A stretch of DNA of 51,012 nucleotides, from the sequence record NC_049815.1; one strand, 5' to 3'. Made by a program: the position numbers and the translations under genes. Under the pieces are notes generated by a model. That model ran no database searches and had not been told where the DNA came from. It was given only the letters and a program-made list of their open reading frames with translations. Source of the DNA: Escherichia phage tonn. Shown in pieces: positions 2,799 through 24,239 of this stretch. Position 1 is the first letter of the stretch; the number at the start of each line of letters is the position of its first letter.

Positions 2799-4360
2799 TT
2801 GCGTAGACCAGCCAGCTTTTTCATCCTTGCTACCGGATCATCTGCCAAGTTCATTTCGACGTTAACAGCATCAACTATATTATCGACAATATCATCATGG
2901 GGATGAGAATCGTCAAAAGTGAACGCTGCAACCTCTGCCATTATCTCAGGTAACATGGGATGACTTTCTGGCAGTGCCACACGTCCGGCCCTCATTACTG
3001 GCGCGGCGTCCATTGCTCGCGTTACCTTGTCATTGCTTCGCTGAACGGGATTTATATCAATCGGGATCTTCTTTTTGGCCCCCTGAATCAAACCCGTGCC
3101 GCTGGCCTTATCCTCAATGTGGATACGTCGCAAGCTGCCACACTCCTTATTGCGCTTCCAGCACTGATTAACGAAGGCAATAAAATTTAATTCAAGATCC
3201 GGCGCTTCCCACTTTCCGCGAATGCCATCAATGAAGTAAACGCGATTCTTATACATCCCCCAATAACAAAAAACTGAATAGTCGTTAAGCTCTCCGGCCT
3301 TCTGCGCGGTATCACCAGTAATAAATGTGTATTCAAAGCGATCCGGTTTAGGAAGTGCGCATTTTTCGCCGCTGCCGTAATACTGGAACCACTCTGTTTT
3401 AAACACGTTGCCGCCAAGCGCGATGGGTTGCTGTTGGTACTGACTGGCGAACGTATAAGGATCTGCATTGCGCAATGCAAGCAATTCCTCCGCGCTTTCC
3501 TTCGCAGGCCAAAATGAATAATGAGCAACGCCATCTATCATCACTGGCTTACTTGACAACACATCACGATCAAATTCAGGCTTCAACCAATCAGGAAGCG
3601 TTTCGCGGTATTCTTTCGTAACCAGCGCCGGAATACTCACAACTTTAAACTCAATACCACCCATCCCGCCATTAAGCATAAACCAGGTGGAATCATTAAC
3701 GTGTAGTCGCTGTTGCACCATAACAATCGGCGTAGTGTCTTTCATTCGACGCGATCGCACTGTGTTTTTTAACCGCATGTGGATCGCCTCACGCTTGACC
3801 TTAGAAAGCATATCATCCGGCTTGTCTGGATCGTCCAGAACCAGCATACCAGTAAAACCATCGTCCATATAGCCGCCACGCAAACCTGTTACCTGTCCGC
3901 CAATAGAACGTGAGTTAACTTGCAATTTAACCTTGCCGCCATCCGTAACTATGAGATCTTTTGCGCTCGCCTTTGCCAGTTTTCCTGGCCATAGCTCTTG
4001 CCACTCAGGAGAACCGATAATCTCCTTTATCCTGTTGCTGTTTTGCTGGACAAGTCCATCACTAAACGAAAGGTTAAGGTTTCTCACCTTCCGACTTTTC
4101 AATGACGCGTAGGGTGACATGTGGATCGAGAAAATCTCAGTCTTACCGCTACCTGGCGTAATGTTGAAAATCACATTCTGCGACTCTCCATTGATGATCT
4201 TCTCTACCTCACTGCACAATAAGCTAAAATGCCAGTTGCTCTGGAATTTTTGCCCCTGCAATAACTGAAACCAGATTCTGATCATCTTTTCGAATGAATG
4301 CTCACTGATTTCTTTAATGGCTCGCTTTTGCGCCGCCGTCAAATCTTCCCATATGATCAT
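2792..4360 (-). CDS. terL: terminase large subunit
   Basis: 522 aa; Walker A-like NITPGSGKTE near N-terminus, C-terminal RNaseH-like nuclease region with acidic residues; TAATG overlap with upstream terS. Confidence 0.9.
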   Translation of the reverse strand: MIIWEDLTAAQKRAIKEISEHSFEKMIRIWFQLLQGQKFQSNWHFSLLCSEVEKIINGESQNVIFNITPGSGKTEIFSIHMSPYASLKSRKVRNLNLSFSDGLVQQNSNRIKEIIGSPEWQELWPGKLAKASAKDLIVTDGGKVKLQVNSRSIGGQVTGLRGGYMDDGFTGMLVLDDPDKPDDMLSKVKREAIHMRLKNTVRSRRMKDTTPIVMVQQRLHVNDSTWFMLNGGMGGIEFKVVSIPALVTKEYRETLPDWLKPEFDRDVLSSKPVMIDGVAHYSFWPAKESAEELLALRNADPYTFASQYQQQPIALGGNVFKTEWFQYYGSGEKCALPKPDRFEYTFITGDTAQKAGELNDYSVFCYWGMYKNRVYFIDGIRGKWEAPDLELNFIAFVNQCWKRNKECGSLRRIHIEDKASGTGLIQGAKKKIPIDINPVQRSNDKVTRAMDAAPVMRAGRVALPESHPMLPEIMAEVAAFTFDDSHPHDDIVDNIVDAVNVEMNLADDPVARMKKLAGLRNK

Positions 4361-11071: not shown

Positions 11072-11962
11072 CACTTTGACCTTCCACTTAACCATCGTTC
11101 CGCGCTTAATGCTGATCTCACCTGCAATCGTCCGGTTTTTATAGCCGCCGTAGTGAAGCAGAAGGATAACAACGTCATCATGAATCTCGATCGTCTTTGG
11201 TGTTGCCGTTACTTCATACCAGGTGCCGTCATCAAGCCGGACTCCTTTTAGAGTGGCTGCAACTGGCATATCTTCAATTGCGCCCTGCGTTACGATTTCT
11301 TGATTTGCAAATGCGCTCTTGTCAATGCGCCAGCCTCCAGGCGCTTTCATTTCGGCAGCCGCTTTGTGGATCTCATCGCCAATGATTTTTTGAATTGACG
11401 TCTTACCGCCGCCGAATGGAGTTTCTCCAAATAAGTGTTTTGTAATATCTTCCACGTAATACACTTTATCTTTTTCGTTGTGCGGATTGTATCTATTGTG
11501 ACCGTTGACAAAGAAATCAACTTTCAACTCTGATTTCGTACCATCGCTATAAACGCCATTGTCGCGCGATGTGAATCGAATCGTTGAATTACCAACCGTG
11601 TAGAACGTGATCGGATACTTGATATTGTCAACACTTAAGCACCACAGCTTTTTATAGTCGCATGTTTTCATCTCGACCATCGGAATCTCTGCGCGTTCCG
11701 GTGAGCGCACTGGCAACACCTGGCCTTTATATGGCTTGTAGTGGAAGCTGGTATATCCTGGCATTGCATAGCCATAGTCTTTAAGTGCGTTGTACTGCGT
11801 ATTGTGCGCATCAATAAAGTGTTCAATCTCCATGTCTGATGGGCTTAGTTTGTCGCTATTCATATCAACCTTATGGCATGTTTTTTCATCGGTAAAAATG
11901 TAATGACCAATGCCGCGAGATTCGAAGGTGATCGGGAATTTAATGTCAGCAAGTTTTAACAT
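11069..11962 (-). CDS. hypothetical protein (297 aa)
   Basis: long ORF with RBS GGAGAAAG; no recognisable motif. Confidence 0.55.
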   Translation of the reverse strand: MLKLADIKFPITFESRGIGHYIFTDEKTCHKVDMNSDKLSPSDMEIEHFIDAHNTQYNALKDYGYAMPGYTSFHYKPYKGQVLPVRSPERAEIPMVEMKTCDYKKLWCLSVDNIKYPITFYTVGNSTIRFTSRDNGVYSDGTKSELKVDFFVNGHNRYNPHNEKDKVYYVEDITKHLFGETPFGGGKTSIQKIIGDEIHKAAAEMKAPGGWRIDKSAFANQEIVTQGAIEDMPVAATLKGVRLDDGTWYEVTATPKTIEIHDDVVILLLHYGGYKNRTIAGEISIKRGTMVKWKVKV

Positions 11963-15765: not shown

Positions 15766-15993
15766 ATGAAAGCAAAAGTTTTAAACATTATGGCAACTAT
15801 TGACGCTCATCACCGCGTGGCTGTAAAACTTGATAAGTCTTGCGGAATTAGCCAAATCACTATCACCGAGGGCAAAGGCGGCTATCTTATTGGTATCCAT
15901 CCAGGCGGTAAGGTGCGCAAATACAATAAAGATCAGTTAAAAGAATTACTGGAAGAAAACGCTTTCTATATTCAAAGTTGGCGTGCTCTTTAA
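15766..15993 (+). CDS. hypothetical protein
   Basis: 75 aa; followed by hairpin GGCGGC-gtttt-GCCGCC. Confidence 0.5.
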   Translation: MKAKVLNIMATIDAHHRVAVKLDKSCGISQITITEGKGGYLIGIHPGGKVRKYNKDQLKELLEENAFYIQSWRAL

Positions 15994-16034
15994 TTAATAT
16001 GGCGGCGTTTTGCCGCCTTTTAAATGAGGTGGAA

Positions 16035-16151
16035 ATGATAGATAAGGCTATTGATTTCTTTTTTTATTCGATTATTGGCGCGGTTGGCTTTTTGGTTACT
16101 GCTGCTGGCCTGGCTATTATCTTGGCTGTTATTAAGGGGATTATGCGATGA
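16035..16151 (+). CDS. small hydrophobic peptide (38 aa, one TM helix)
   Basis: manual translation MIDKAIDFFFYSIIGAVGFLVTAAGLAIILAVIKGIMR; GAGGTGG RBS; ATGA overlap with next gene. Confidence 0.3.
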   Translation: MIDKAIDFFFYSIIGAVGFLVTAAGLAIILAVIKGIMR

Positions 16152-16372
16152 GTCAAGACGGATTTTTTGAGCGCCTTCAAATGGCAGAAGATGCCGGACT
16201 AAATAAAGAGGCGGCGCTTGAAGTGGCATATAAAATTAAGCCTCTTGATGAGGCTTTAGGTGATATGGATATGGATCTTGAATCAAGCGCAATATTTGCA
16301 GATCCCACTATGATTGTTAATGATTGTGGATGCGATTTCGATCCTGGTTGTCCGCGCTGTTTTCCGTTTTGA
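16148..16372 (+). CDS. small acidic Cys-rich protein
   Basis: 74 aa; C-terminal CGCDFDPGCPRCF cluster. Confidence 0.5.
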   Translation: MSQDGFFERLQMAEDAGLNKEAALEVAYKIKPLDEALGDMDMDLESSAIFADPTMIVNDCGCDFDPGCPRCFPF

Positions 16373-16383
16373 GGTAATGACGA

Positions 16384-17093
16384 TGTATAAAGGTTTAATA
16401 TTCTCCCTATTTGATGGATCTGGTAAAGCAGTTAAAGATTGGGCTGATAATGGATATAAGTGCATTTGCTTTAATGCTGACGGCGGCGATCACGGTGATT
16501 ACCAGTCAGTGCGCATACAGCATGAGAATATCGAATACGTTAACGTCTGGATTGATGATGCTTTTTATGTTAAGGCAATCAATAATGAGTTGGGCAATCC
16601 TGATTTTATTATGGCGTTCCATCCTTGCACCGACCTTGCAAATAGCGGATCTCGCCATTGGGCCAAAAAACGCCTTGAGAATCCATCGTTCCAGGATGAG
16701 GCCGCCGACACTTGCAGAATCGCGGCTGATATAGCTGATTATTTCGGTGTTCCTTACATGATCGAAAATCCGGTTGGCAAGTTGTCAACGTTATGGCGTA
16801 AGCCTGATTATACGTTCCATCCGTGCGATTACGCTGGCTATCTGCCGGAAGATGATAAACATCCCGACTTCCCTGATATTATTCCGGCGCGTGATCGCTA
16901 TTTTAAGAAAACGTGCCTCTGGACTGGCAACGGCTTTGTTATTCCTCCACGCGCTTTAATCCTGCCGAAAGAGGAAGACAAAGATAATCCAGGCTGGGCC
17001 AAAACTGGAGGCAAGTCATCGCGCACAAAGATGATCCGCTCCCTCACTCCGCGCGGATTTGCTCGCGCCGTCTTTGAGTCAAACTCAAAATAG
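16384..17093 (+). CDS. DNA cytosine-5 methyltransferase-fold protein, atypical and without a normal target recognition domain
   Basis: 236 aa from ATG 16384 (GAGG RBS); FSLFDGSG (motif I-like), HPC-T at residues 80-83 (motif IV-like), ENPVG (motif VI-like), PARDRYF (motif VIII-like) at M.HhaI-like spacing. Confidence 0.55.
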
Positions 17094-17108: not shown

Positions 17109-17162
17109 GCCAGGTGTAAAAACCTGGCATAATCACATCGAACAAACAAAGGAGATCTGATC

Positions 17163-23448: not shown

Positions 23449-24174
23449 TTAGCTCCGTTTGCGCGCGCGGCGTTCGGTTACAGAAGGGCAAATATCGCTG
23501 ATCTTAACGTATCGCGTTTTCTGCTCTTCGCCTTCTTTAAGTTTACGCATGACAAAAATCACGCTCCCCTTATTGTTGCCCTGTACAGGCTCGCCAGTCA
23601 ATCCAGACACAAAGGCGATTCTTCCGGTGCGGGAATATTCCACTCCCCCCTCTTCGTAAACCTCGCCAGTGATCCAGATGATTTCAGCCGCGTTTTTCTG
23701 CGCCTCATAAAACCATGCTGTAGAGTTGTCGGATGGCAACAAAACATCAATTTGGTTGTTGTGCTCCATTTGCTCAATTGCTTTCTTGATAAATGGAGTT
23801 GGGTTGCTGTGCGGCGGGTTAAGCCATACGTGCTTGTTGCTACCCCACCAACGCTTTAAGCAATTTGTTTCCTTGCTGTAGAACTTCTCGCAAACTGCGT
23901 TTTCCTGGCTTGCTGCCGCGTCGAGATCGTATTCACCAAATTCTGATTCCATCCACTCCACGATCTCTTGAGGCGTGCTCCACATATCGCGCACAACGTC
24001 CGGCGTAGTGCTTCCAGCGTATCGGTTGCCGCTTACCTTATAATATTGATTTGGCTTTACTGCCTGGTAATGGCCTCCAGTTGCAAGAGCATTTCCTATA
24101 AACGTTTCTCTCTCCAACTGCTCAAAGCTAACGAATGCGTCATATGTGTCTTTATCTAAAATATCTTTAGCCAT
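23449..24174 (-). CDS. dam: DNA N6-adenine methyltransferase (phage Dam family)
   Basis: W-x-TP motif near N-terminus and NPPHS (DPPY-type) catalytic motif. Confidence 0.7.
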   Translation of the reverse strand: MAKDILDKDTYDAFVSFEQLERETFIGNALATGGHYQAVKPNQYYKVSGNRYAGSTTPDVVRDMWSTPQEIVEWMESEFGEYDLDAAASQENAVCEKFYSKETNCLKRWWGSNKHVWLNPPHSNPTPFIKKAIEQMEHNNQIDVLLPSDNSTAWFYEAQKNAAEIIWITGEVYEEGGVEYSRTGRIAFVSGLTGEPVQGNNKGSVIFVMRKLKEGEEQKTRYVKISDICPSVTERRARKRS

Positions 24175-24239
24175 TTTCATTTCTCCGCTATTAAAAGCCA
24201 TCTCGTGTTATTGAATTATGGCGCAATCCATCGCGCCAG

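What the first reader, a model, noticed from the sequence alone, without database searches (positions are those of the whole stretch)
16035..17093. Atypical TRD-less cytosine-5 methyltransferase-fold gene in a three-gene translationally coupled operon
The 236-aa protein (16384..17093) has C5-methyltransferase catalytic motifs at M.HhaI-like positions: FSLFDGSG (motif I, second Gly replaced), HPC-T at residues 80-83 (motif IV with Thr in place of the usual Gln), ENPVG (motif VI) and PARDRYF (motif VIII). Only about 60 residues follow, so there is no room for a normal target recognition domain, and motifs IX/X are rearranged or absent. It is preceded, without an intervening motif cassette, by a 38-aa hydrophobic peptide (16035..16151) and a 74-aa acidic protein with a CGCDFDPGCPRCF cluster (16148..16372), coupled by ATGA overlap and an 11-nt gap. 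The genome also encodes a conventional Dam. The protein could be a non-specific or short-site cytosine methylase, a different base-modifying enzyme on the same fold, or an inactive DNA-binding derivative (anti-restriction role).
Basis: partly seen in the sequence, partly recalled or inferred. Interest (0 to 1): 0.7.

Follow-up and report, generated by a model that had tools for sequence, protein, structure and literature searches.

The report
Known compact phage cytosine methyltransferase (Dcm-like)
This gene is the small "Dcm-like" cytosine-5 DNA methyltransferase of T1-family coliphages, whose 89%-identical counterpart has already been shown to make 5-methylcytosine and to set off the bacterial retron Ec86 defence, so the finding is real but already known.

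Summary
The three ORFs are real. The methylase starts at 16383, not 16384. The window is a Warwickvirus-type Drexlerviridae coliphage, 99.8% identical to vB-Eco-KMB46. GenBank relatives annotate this gene as a Dcm-like C5 cytosine methyltransferase.

The protein is 89% identical, without gaps, to the KarlJaspers (Bas06) Dcm. C82, E128, K175 and K176 are identical. A relative of that phage, K42, carries the 711-bp dcm shown by LC-MS to put 5mC on retron Ec86 msDNA and to trigger that defence (Wang et al., bioRxiv 2023; Cell Rep 2024).

The family is large: 1,493 phage records, most members 210-260 aa.

Sequence specificity was only assumed to be CCWGG. The 74-aa acidic protein with a Cys cluster lies directly upstream of dcm across Drexlerviridae but is absent beside dcm in other phage families. 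The 38-aa peptide is lineage-specific.

Verdict: already known, low interest.

The parts
16001..16021 (+). Terminator-like hairpin (GGCGGCG-TTT-TGCCGCC) followed by TTTT, between the upstream gene (stop at 15993) and the 38-aa ORF
   Evidence: Pattern scan. KarlJaspers has a hairpin plus T-run of different sequence at the same position. No sigma-70-like promoter lies between it and the 38-aa ORF.
16035..16151 (+). 38-aa hydrophobic peptide (p38), probably a single-pass membrane peptide. Function unknown.
   Evidence: ORF with GAGGTG 5 nt upstream. GRAVY 1.63. tblastn finds it in only 62 phage records, all close relatives. KarlJaspers has a diverged 37-aa counterpart with the same ATGA overlap. 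No PHROG or Pfam hit.
16148..16372 (+). 74-aa acidic protein (p74). It has an N-terminal three-helix region, an acidic linker and a C-terminal C-x-C-x5-C-x2-C cluster. Function unknown.
   Evidence: PHROG 9323 (unknown function), E=5e-36. pI 4.05. Found in 447 phage records. The AF2 model is poor (pLDDT 64.5, helices 6-15, 20-27, 33-38). The Cys cluster co-occurs with a directly downstream dcm in 43 of 44 IMG/VR loci.
16371..16375 (+). Shine-Dalgarno GAGGT for dcm, overlapping the p74 stop codon
   Evidence: Sequence; the same element is present in KarlJaspers. Published retron-escape mutants of K42 carry a C-to-A change 9 bp upstream of the dcm start. Because the gene is on the minus strand of the KarlJaspers record, this is G-to-T in GAGG on the coding strand. 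This is an inference.
16383..17093 (+). dcm: 236-aa compact orphan C5-cytosine DNA methyltransferase. Motif I 10-14, motif IV P81-C82, motif VI E128-N129-P130, motif VIII-like 170-180, variable insert about 183-212, motif IX 219-231.
   Evidence: It is 89% identical to KarlJaspers Dcm. Experimental data come from the K42 orthologue.
17109..17128 (+). Inverted repeat GCCAGG-N8-CCTGGC just after the dcm stop. It has no T-run and holds two CCWGG sites in the stem.
   Evidence: Sequence and fold. Conserved in KarlJaspers. CCWGG positions 17110 and 17123. Role unknown.
23449..24201 (-). Phage Dam (N6-adenine methyltransferase), the second orphan methylase of this genome
   Evidence: Pfam PF05869, E=3.2e-60. 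Annotated dam in swan01.

Best explanation
The ORF at 16383..17093 encodes the Drexlerviridae 'Dcm-like' orphan DNA cytosine-5 methyltransferase.

It is a single-domain, minimal member of the C5-MTase superfamily. It consists of a Rossmann-type catalytic domain, a variable insert of about 35 residues in place of a target recognition domain, and a C-terminal motif IX helix.

The inferred chemistry is the standard C5-MTase mechanism. Cys82 attacks C6 of a flipped-out cytosine, Glu128 protonates N3, and the methyl group of S-adenosylmethionine goes to C5.

Shown for an orthologue: expression of the K42 enzyme alone gives 5mC on retron Ec86 msDNA and activates that abortive-infection system. Mutating C82, E128, K175 and K176 abolishes both effects. 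K42 is a relative of KarlJaspers, whose Dcm is 89% identical to this protein.

Inferred: in infection the enzyme methylates phage (and host) DNA to blunt m5C-sensitive restriction whatever the host's dcm status, at the price of being sensed by retron Ec86.

Its sequence specificity is probably CCWGG-like but has not been measured directly.

The upstream p74 is a Drexlerviridae-specific companion that is not needed for activity. p38 is an unrelated lineage-specific membrane peptide in the same rightward gene array.
For: - Orthology. The protein is 210/236 identical, without gaps, to KarlJaspers Bas06 Dcm, with C82, E128, K175 and K176 identical and the same p38-p74-dcm layout.
- Experiment. Preprint 10.1101/2023.08.16.553469 reports escape mutants in the 711-bp dcm, LC-MS detection of 5mC, loss of function in the quadruple mutant, and loss of defence when the CCTGG in the msDNA is mutated. 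It was published as Cell Rep 43:114857.
- Conservation. The motif I, IV, VI and IX residues are invariant in 29 homologues.
- Annotation. PHROG 757 'DNA methyltransferase' matches at E=2.7e-83, and GenBank names it Dcm-like.
- Circumstantial support for CCWGG-type protection. The genome purges many restriction sites: 16 of 64 six-base palindromes are absent, and CCSGG occurs 3 times against 20 expected. It keeps CCWGG (135 against 124) and GATC (298 against 299), the two motifs its own methylases could cover.
Against: - There is no Pfam PF00145 or NCBIfam hit even at E<=10.
- Profile searches against PDB sequences reach only E=0.27, for DNMT3B motifs I-IV.
- hhalign against E. coli Dcm and M.HhaI is insignificant. 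The name 'Dcm' does not reflect orthology, and CCWGG specificity cannot be transferred by homology.
- Motif X was not found, and the second Arg of motif VIII is not conserved.
- In the published work the host was dcm+ MG1655, yet control msDNA had little 5mC and the retron stayed silent. This fits poorly with simple Dcm-like CCWGG specificity.
- This window's protein carries private W70L and P80H changes. P80H lies two residues before the catalytic Cys, and its effect is unknown.
- No experiment was done on this exact sequence.
Confidence: 0.87

Rival explanations
1. It is an active C5-methyltransferase whose minimal insert gives a short, relaxed or structure-dependent specificity, for example CC, CCW or hairpin DNA, rather than true CCWGG.
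For: - Only about 35 variable residues lie between motif VIII and motif IX.
- The best structural neighbours are DNMT3A/B. From general knowledge, these read only CpG and work as dimers.
- There is no detectable homology to the E. coli Dcm recognition domain.
- Host Dcm in MG1655 did not methylate or trigger the msDNA, whereas the phage enzyme did.
- CCWGG was assumed from the name, not mapped.
Against: - Expression was not toxic in McrBC+ MG1655 lacking the retron. Using general knowledge of McrBC specificity, this argues against widespread methylation of cytosines preceded by a purine.
- Mutating either C of the msDNA CCTGG abolished defence.
- Six-base palindromes containing CC are purged from the genome as if unprotected.
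Confidence: 0.25
2. p74 and Dcm form a two-protein enzyme or a regulated pair. The p74 Cys knuckle or acidic region would supply DNA recognition, zinc-dependent stabilisation or inhibition.
For: - p74 variants with the Cys cluster have dcm directly downstream in 43 of 44 IMG/VR loci. This holds even where p74 is only 32-37% identical.
- The gap is usually 7-23 nt, and the dcm Shine-Dalgarno overlaps the p74 stop.
- Tunavirus p74 lacks the Cys cluster. There dcm is absent (T1) or sits elsewhere as the first gene of the array.
Against: - Dcm expressed alone methylated DNA and triggered the retron.
- dcm occurs in 1,493 phage records against 447 for p74. It has other neighbours in Dhillonvirus and Krischvirus.
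- In L045 a Cys-bearing p74 is followed by an HNH endonuclease instead of dcm.
- The Cys-less cases all belong to one clade, so they amount to a single evolutionary event.
- Conserved synteny within one phage family is weak evidence of interaction.
Confidence: 0.1
3. It transfers a group other than methyl, for example carboxymethyl from Cx-SAM as the phage CmoX enzymes do.
For: - The family's motif IV, FPPC, resembles the CmoX SPPC signature. E. coli makes Cx-SAM itself, so no phage cmoA would be needed.
Against: - LC-MS found 5mC for the orthologue.
- The Arg defined for CmoX (R350, in the motif X region) has no counterpart, because motif X is missing.
- The swan01 annotation of the homologous region shows no CmoA- or CmoY-like genes.
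Confidence: 0.03
4. It is a catalytically dead, DNA-binding remnant of a methylase with an anti-restriction role.
For: - Small size, no motif X, and no Pfam hit.
- The private P80H change lies next to the catalytic Cys in this window.
Against: - All catalytic residues are invariant across a family of more than 3,000 cluster representatives.
- The orthologue is active, and the mutant carrying C82A with three other substitutions lost function.
Confidence: 0.03

Closest known systems
Phage K42 / KarlJaspers (Bas06) 'Dcm', the trigger of retron Ec86 (Wang et al., bioRxiv 2023; Cell Rep 2024)
   Same: Same 236-aa length. It is 89% identical without gaps, and the residues mutated in that study are identical. 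The p38-p74-dcm layout and the Shine-Dalgarno are the same.
   Different: The source phage belongs to a different genus (Hanrivervirus against Warwickvirus-like). There are 26 substitutions, including this window's private W70L and P80H. This exact protein has not been tested.
DNMT3A/DNMT3B catalytic domain
   Different: Only about 14% identical. DNMT3 keeps motif X and, from general knowledge, works in DNMT3L-containing oligomers on CpG. Sequence-level similarity is not significant (E=0.27).
Classical bacterial C5-MTases (M.HhaI, M.HaeIII, E. coli Dcm; Pfam PF00145)
   Different: No PF00145 hit. There is no 80-200-residue TRD and no motif X. Motif IV has Thr instead of Gln, motif VI is ENP instead of ENV, and motif VIII is Lys-rich instead of QxRxR. 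It is not an orthologue of E. coli Dcm (hhalign probability 1.2%).
Split C5-MTases (M.AquI, M.EcoHK31I), from general knowledge
   Same: A small polypeptide is encoded next to a truncated-looking C5-MTase.
   Different: In those enzymes the second polypeptide supplies missing conserved motifs. p74 contains no C5-MTase motif, and Dcm alone is active.
CmoX, phage DNA cytosine C5-carboxymethyltransferase (PMC12783734)
   Different: No counterpart of its Cx-SAM-binding Arg was found here, and no CmoA or CmoY genes are annotated nearby. The orthologue makes 5mC.

Membership tests
C5-cytosine DNA methyltransferase superfamily | Class I SAM-MTase fold with C5-MTases as nearest structural neighbours | tested here: met
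C5-cytosine DNA methyltransferase superfamily | Motif I F-x-G-x-G (SAM binding) | tested here: met
   F10-D11-G12-S13-G14. D11 to G14 are invariant in 29 homologues.
C5-cytosine DNA methyltransferase superfamily | Motif IV Pro-Cys with the catalytic cysteine | tested here: met
   P81-C82 are invariant. The weak hhalign pairing puts C82 opposite HhaI C81. C82 was one of four residues changed in the loss-of-function mutant of the orthologue.
C5-cytosine DNA methyltransferase superfamily | Motif VI E-N-V (Glu that protonates N3) | tested here: met
   E128-N129-P130 are invariant. The motif reads ENP rather than ENV.
C5-cytosine DNA methyltransferase superfamily | Motif VIII Q-x-R-x-R | tested here: inconclusive
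   The segment R170-D171-x-Y173-x-K175-K176 lies before strand 177-182. D171, Y173 and K175 are invariant, but the second Arg is not conserved. No residue-level superposition was available.
C5-cytosine DNA methyltransferase superfamily | Separate target recognition domain between motifs VIII and IX | tested here: not met
   Only about 35 variable residues (about 183-212) lie there. 192 of 236 residues align to the DNMT3B catalytic domain.
C5-cytosine DNA methyltransferase superfamily | Motif IX (R-x-L-T-x-R-E-x-A-R-L-Q-like) | tested here: met
   R219-S-L-T-P-R224-G-F-A-R-A-V-F; R219 to R224 are invariant. The correspondence to motif IX is by pattern, from general knowledge.
C5-cytosine DNA methyltransferase superfamily | Motif X (G-N-[S/A]-V helix) | tested here: not met
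   The protein ends 5 residues after the motif IX helix. No GN[SA]V is present; only an invariant N234.
Pfam PF00145 DNA_methylase / NCBIfam C5-MTase models | Match to the curated HMM | tested here: not met
   No Pfam or NCBIfam family at E<=10. None of the 120 listed homologues carries a precomputed Pfam domain.
PHROG 757 / Drexlerviridae Dcm-like methyltransferase family | Full-length profile match and orthology to the characterised K42/KarlJaspers enzyme | tested here: met
   PHROG 757 E=2.7e-83, covering residues 2-235. 89% identity to KarlJaspers Dcm in conserved synteny.
PHROG 757 / Drexlerviridae Dcm-like methyltransferase family | SAM-dependent formation of 5-methylcytosine in DNA | not testable with these tools
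   Reported for the K42 orthologue by LC-MS. Not measured for this sequence.
E. coli Dcm / EcoRII-type CCWGG methylases | Homology to the Dcm protein, including its recognition domain | tested here: not met
   hhalign of the family profile against E. coli K-12 Dcm aligns only 25 columns around motif IV, with probability 1.2%.
E. coli Dcm / EcoRII-type CCWGG methylases | Methylation of the inner C of CCWGG | not testable with these tools
   Assumed, and supported only indirectly by msDNA mutants. The genome keeps CCWGG (135 observed, 124 expected) while purging other sites.

The most novel reading that the evidence does not exclude
The enzyme may not be a true CCWGG 'Dcm'. Instead it could be a minimal, DNMT3-like methylase whose short variable insert gives a short or structure-dependent specificity. 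The tightly linked acidic p74 protein, with its C-x-C-x5-C-x2-C knuckle, could be its partner or regulator. Together they would form a two-gene module specific to Drexlerviridae, on a protein family that Pfam and NCBIfam do not yet model.
Probability: 0.2. Interest if true: 0.5.

Novelty: already known. Interest (0 to 1): 0.22.

Why it matters
The gene matters mainly as context. It belongs to a very common phage methylase family, present in about 3% of deposited phage genomes. It is a documented trigger of retron Ec86, so its presence predicts that this phage is sensitive to that defence.

What is still worth knowing:

- The real recognition sequence of such a stripped-down C5-methyltransferase.
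- How it recognises DNA without a recognition domain or motif X.
- Whether the always-adjacent p74 protein has anything to do with it.

The absence of any Pfam or NCBIfam model for a family this large is a practical annotation gap.

Tried and rejected
1. Pfam and NCBIfam scans of all three proteins gave nothing, even at E<=10.
2. phmmer of the protein against PDB sequences gave only a spurious kinase hit. The family profile reached only E=0.27, for DNMT3B.
3. hhalign of the family profile against E. coli Dcm and against M.HhaI (sequence verified identical to 10mh_A) was insignificant. It covered only motifs I-IV or motif IV. Motif VIII and X correspondences could therefore not be settled by sequence.
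5. p74 alone gave a low-confidence model (pLDDT 64.5), so no fold search was run on it.
6. The published Cell Reports version could not be read. Only the preprint was used.
7. Literature searches found nothing for a measured methylation motif in Drexlerviridae, nor for a description of a TRD-less phage C5-MTase.
8. Comparing CCWGG density with dcm-less T1 was only weakly suggestive: 83 sites against 100 expected in T1, and 135 against 124 in the window, from just two genomes. I do not rely on it.
9. The idea that p74 supplies a missing methylase motif was rejected, because p74 contains no such motif and Dcm alone is active.

Full report
**What is in the sequence.** The region holds three co-directional ORFs on the + strand.

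- p38 is a 38-aa hydrophobic peptide at 16035..16151.
- p74 is a 74-aa acidic protein at 16148..16372.
- The third ORF encodes 236 aa and ends at 17093.

The 236-aa ORF starts at 16383, not 16384; translating from 16384 gives five stop codons. The gap to the p74 stop is 10 nt and contains GAGGT.

Two details need correcting. Motif I is an intact F-x-G-x-G. A clear motif IX (RSLTPRGFARAVF, 219-231) is present; only motif X was not found. The Dam gene exists at 23449..24201 on the minus strand (Pfam PF05869, E=3e-60).

**Where the window comes from.** The region is 99.8% identical to Escherichia phage vB-Eco-KMB46 and 97-99% identical to swan01, tunzivis and FritzSarasin. These are Drexlerviridae, subfamily Tempevirinae, genus Warwickvirus. 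In those records the gene is already called 'dcm', 'DNA methyltransferase' or 'Dcm-like C5 cytosine methyltransferase'.

Several records start it 63 nt further upstream, giving 257 aa that overlap p74. Three things favour 16383: the homologue alignment, the Shine-Dalgarno sequence, and the published 711-bp gene length.

**It is already characterised.** A preprint on retron Ec86 (10.1101/2023.08.16.553469) was later published as Wang et al., Cell Rep 43:114857. It used phage K42, a relative of KarlJaspers (Bas06), and reported the following.

- All four escape mutants hit a 711-bp dcm gene.
- Expressing Dcm alone arrested growth of cells carrying the retron.
- LC-MS showed 5mC on the msDNA.
- A C82A/E128A/K175A/K176A mutant was inert.

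I fetched KarlJaspers. Its Dcm is 236 aa and 210/236 identical to the window protein, without gaps. All four mutated residues are identical, and the same 37-aa and 74-aa genes lie upstream.

Two of the published escape mutants carry a C-to-A change 9 bp upstream of the start. The gene is on the minus strand of the record, so on the coding strand this is a G-to-T change in the GAGG that I take to be the Shine-Dalgarno. That is an inference, but it supports the 16383 start.

**Is it really a C5-methyltransferase, and is it TRD-less?** Sequence libraries are nearly blind to it.

- Pfam and NCBIfam give no hit even at E<=10.
- phmmer against PDB sequences gives nothing meaningful.
- The family profile reaches only E=0.27, against DNMT3B motifs I-IV.
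- hhalign against E. coli Dcm and M.HhaI is insignificant, although it pairs motif I with motif I and C82 with HhaI C81.
- PHROG 757 'DNA methyltransferase' matches at E=3e-83.

- then DNMT3A, M.HhaI and M.HaeIII.

Foldseek agrees. The protein is therefore essentially a bare catalytic domain. About 35 variable residues (about 183-212) stand where other enzymes have an 80-200-residue recognition domain. The chain ends right after the motif IX helix.

The closest resemblance is to DNMT3 (SLFDG, PC-x-DL), which from general knowledge also has a minimal recognition insert.

**Size of the family.**

- The protein search returned 3,028 cluster representatives, mostly 227-260 aa, and none of the 120 listed carries a Pfam domain.
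- An exhaustive profile search found 2,083 clusters at 50% identity with E<=0.001, mostly 210-260 aa.
- tblastn finds the gene in 1,493 of 50,697 phage records. These include Drexlerviridae, Dhillonvirus, Krischvirus, large (130-170 kb) coliphage genomes, and Vibrio and Arthrobacter phages.

The small size is a family trait, not a truncation.

**The 'three-gene operon'.** p38 is found in only 62 records, all close relatives, plus a diverged 37-aa version in KarlJaspers.

p74 (PHROG 9323, unknown function) occurs in 447 records, which appear to be Drexlerviridae. In 57 IMG/VR loci with p74 relatives:

- Forty-four loci have a p74 with the C-terminal Cys cluster. Forty-three of these have dcm directly downstream, usually 7-23 nt away, even where p74 identity falls to 32-37%.
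- The exception, L045, has an HNH endonuclease in place of dcm.
- Tunavirus phages have a p74 without the Cys cluster. There dcm is absent (T1 has no dcm anywhere in its genome) or sits about 3 kb away as the first gene of the array (LeonhardEuler).

This pattern is suggestive, but the Cys-less cases are a single clade. dcm has other neighbours in Dhillonvirus (a helicase and an HNH endonuclease) and in Krischvirus. Dcm alone was active in the published assays.

p74's N-terminal region also occurs in larger proteins of 155-kb phages that have no dcm nearby. The p74 AlphaFold model is poor: three short helices followed by disorder.

The trio is also part of a much longer rightward gene array. 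A terminator-like hairpin precedes p38, and it is conserved in position, though not in sequence, in KarlJaspers.

**Mechanism and open points.** I take the standard C5-MTase chemistry as inferred and 5mC formation as shown for the orthologue.

Specificity is not settled. The preprint assumed CCWGG from the name. It showed only that changing the CCTGG in the msDNA stem abolished defence. The host in those experiments was dcm+ MG1655, yet control msDNA had little 5mC.

Two observations favour a CCWGG-like pattern, or at least one that E. coli K-12 tolerates.

1. Expression was not toxic in MG1655 lacking the retron. From general knowledge, MG1655 has McrBC.
2. Site usage in this genome is skewed. 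It has lost many restriction sites: 16 of 64 six-base palindromes are absent, EcoRV occurs 0 times, EcoRI 3 times against 15 expected, and CCSGG 3 times against 20. It keeps CCWGG (135 against 124) and GATC (298 against 299).

These are circumstantial. The carboxymethyl rival is unlikely, because no counterpart of the CmoX Arg was found and the orthologue yields 5mC.

**Verdict.** But this is a known, annotated and experimentally studied phage gene. The residual interest lies in its undetermined specificity, its minimal architecture, the missing Pfam and NCBIfam model, and the unexplained p74 linkage.

Noticed in passing
whole window (1-51012): Restriction sites are strongly avoided. 16 of 64 six-base palindromes are absent. 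Counts: EcoRV 0 (about 14 expected), EcoRI 3 (15), PstI 0, BamHI 1, HindIII 1, and the EcoKI site 0. Some 5-mers are nearly absent (GGTTC 0 against 17; CCSGG 3 against 20). GATC and CCWGG are not depleted. The BASEL paper reports that the closest relatives (FritzSarasin, PeterMerian) are unusually resistant to restriction-modification systems for unknown reasons. Site avoidance may be that reason.
   Followed up: partly
window 16590-16592 and 16620-16622 (Dcm residues 70 and 80): Compared with its four closest relatives, this window's Dcm has two private amino-acid changes. They are W70L (TGG to TTG) and P80H (CCT to CAT). P80H lies two residues before the catalytic Cys82, at a position that is Pro in about 90% of homologues. 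It could be neutral, or a hypomorph that lowers retron triggering.
   Followed up: partly
window 17109-17128: A conserved inverted repeat, GCCAGG-N8-CCTGGC, lies directly after the dcm stop codon. It has no T-run, and each arm contains a CCWGG site. It is also present in KarlJaspers. Its role is unknown.
   Followed up: no
window 16001-16021; L010 (KarlJaspers) about 11143-11189: A terminator-like hairpin plus T-run lies just upstream of p38. KarlJaspers has one at the same position with a different stem sequence. This suggests a real terminator or attenuator in front of p38, p74 and dcm.
   Followed up: partly
window 16320-16382: Many GenBank records start dcm 63 nt upstream, giving 257 aa that overlap the end of p74 in another frame. 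The homologue alignment, the Shine-Dalgarno sequence and the published gene length indicate that this extension is an annotation artefact.
   Followed up: yes
L005 (phage welsh) 2489-3519; L045 3232-3798: In Dhillonvirus the dcm homologue overlaps a downstream HNH endonuclease gene. In one Webervirus-like contig an HNH endonuclease replaces dcm after p74. Homing endonucleases seem to target this locus repeatedly.
   Followed up: no
search results: About 20 records named 'Campylobacter phage' (47-50 kb, for example MG065636 and MG065679) match this coliphage region. Their p74 is about 85% identical to the window's. They look like Drexlerviridae coliphages with a mislabelled host.
   Followed up: no
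L060-L065 (155-kb phage contigs), around 3001-3190: The N-terminal helical region of p74 (AGL..E..VA...L.DALGDMDM) also occurs at the start of 166-206-aa proteins in large phages (PHROG 4823). These have no Cys cluster and no dcm nearby.
   Followed up: no
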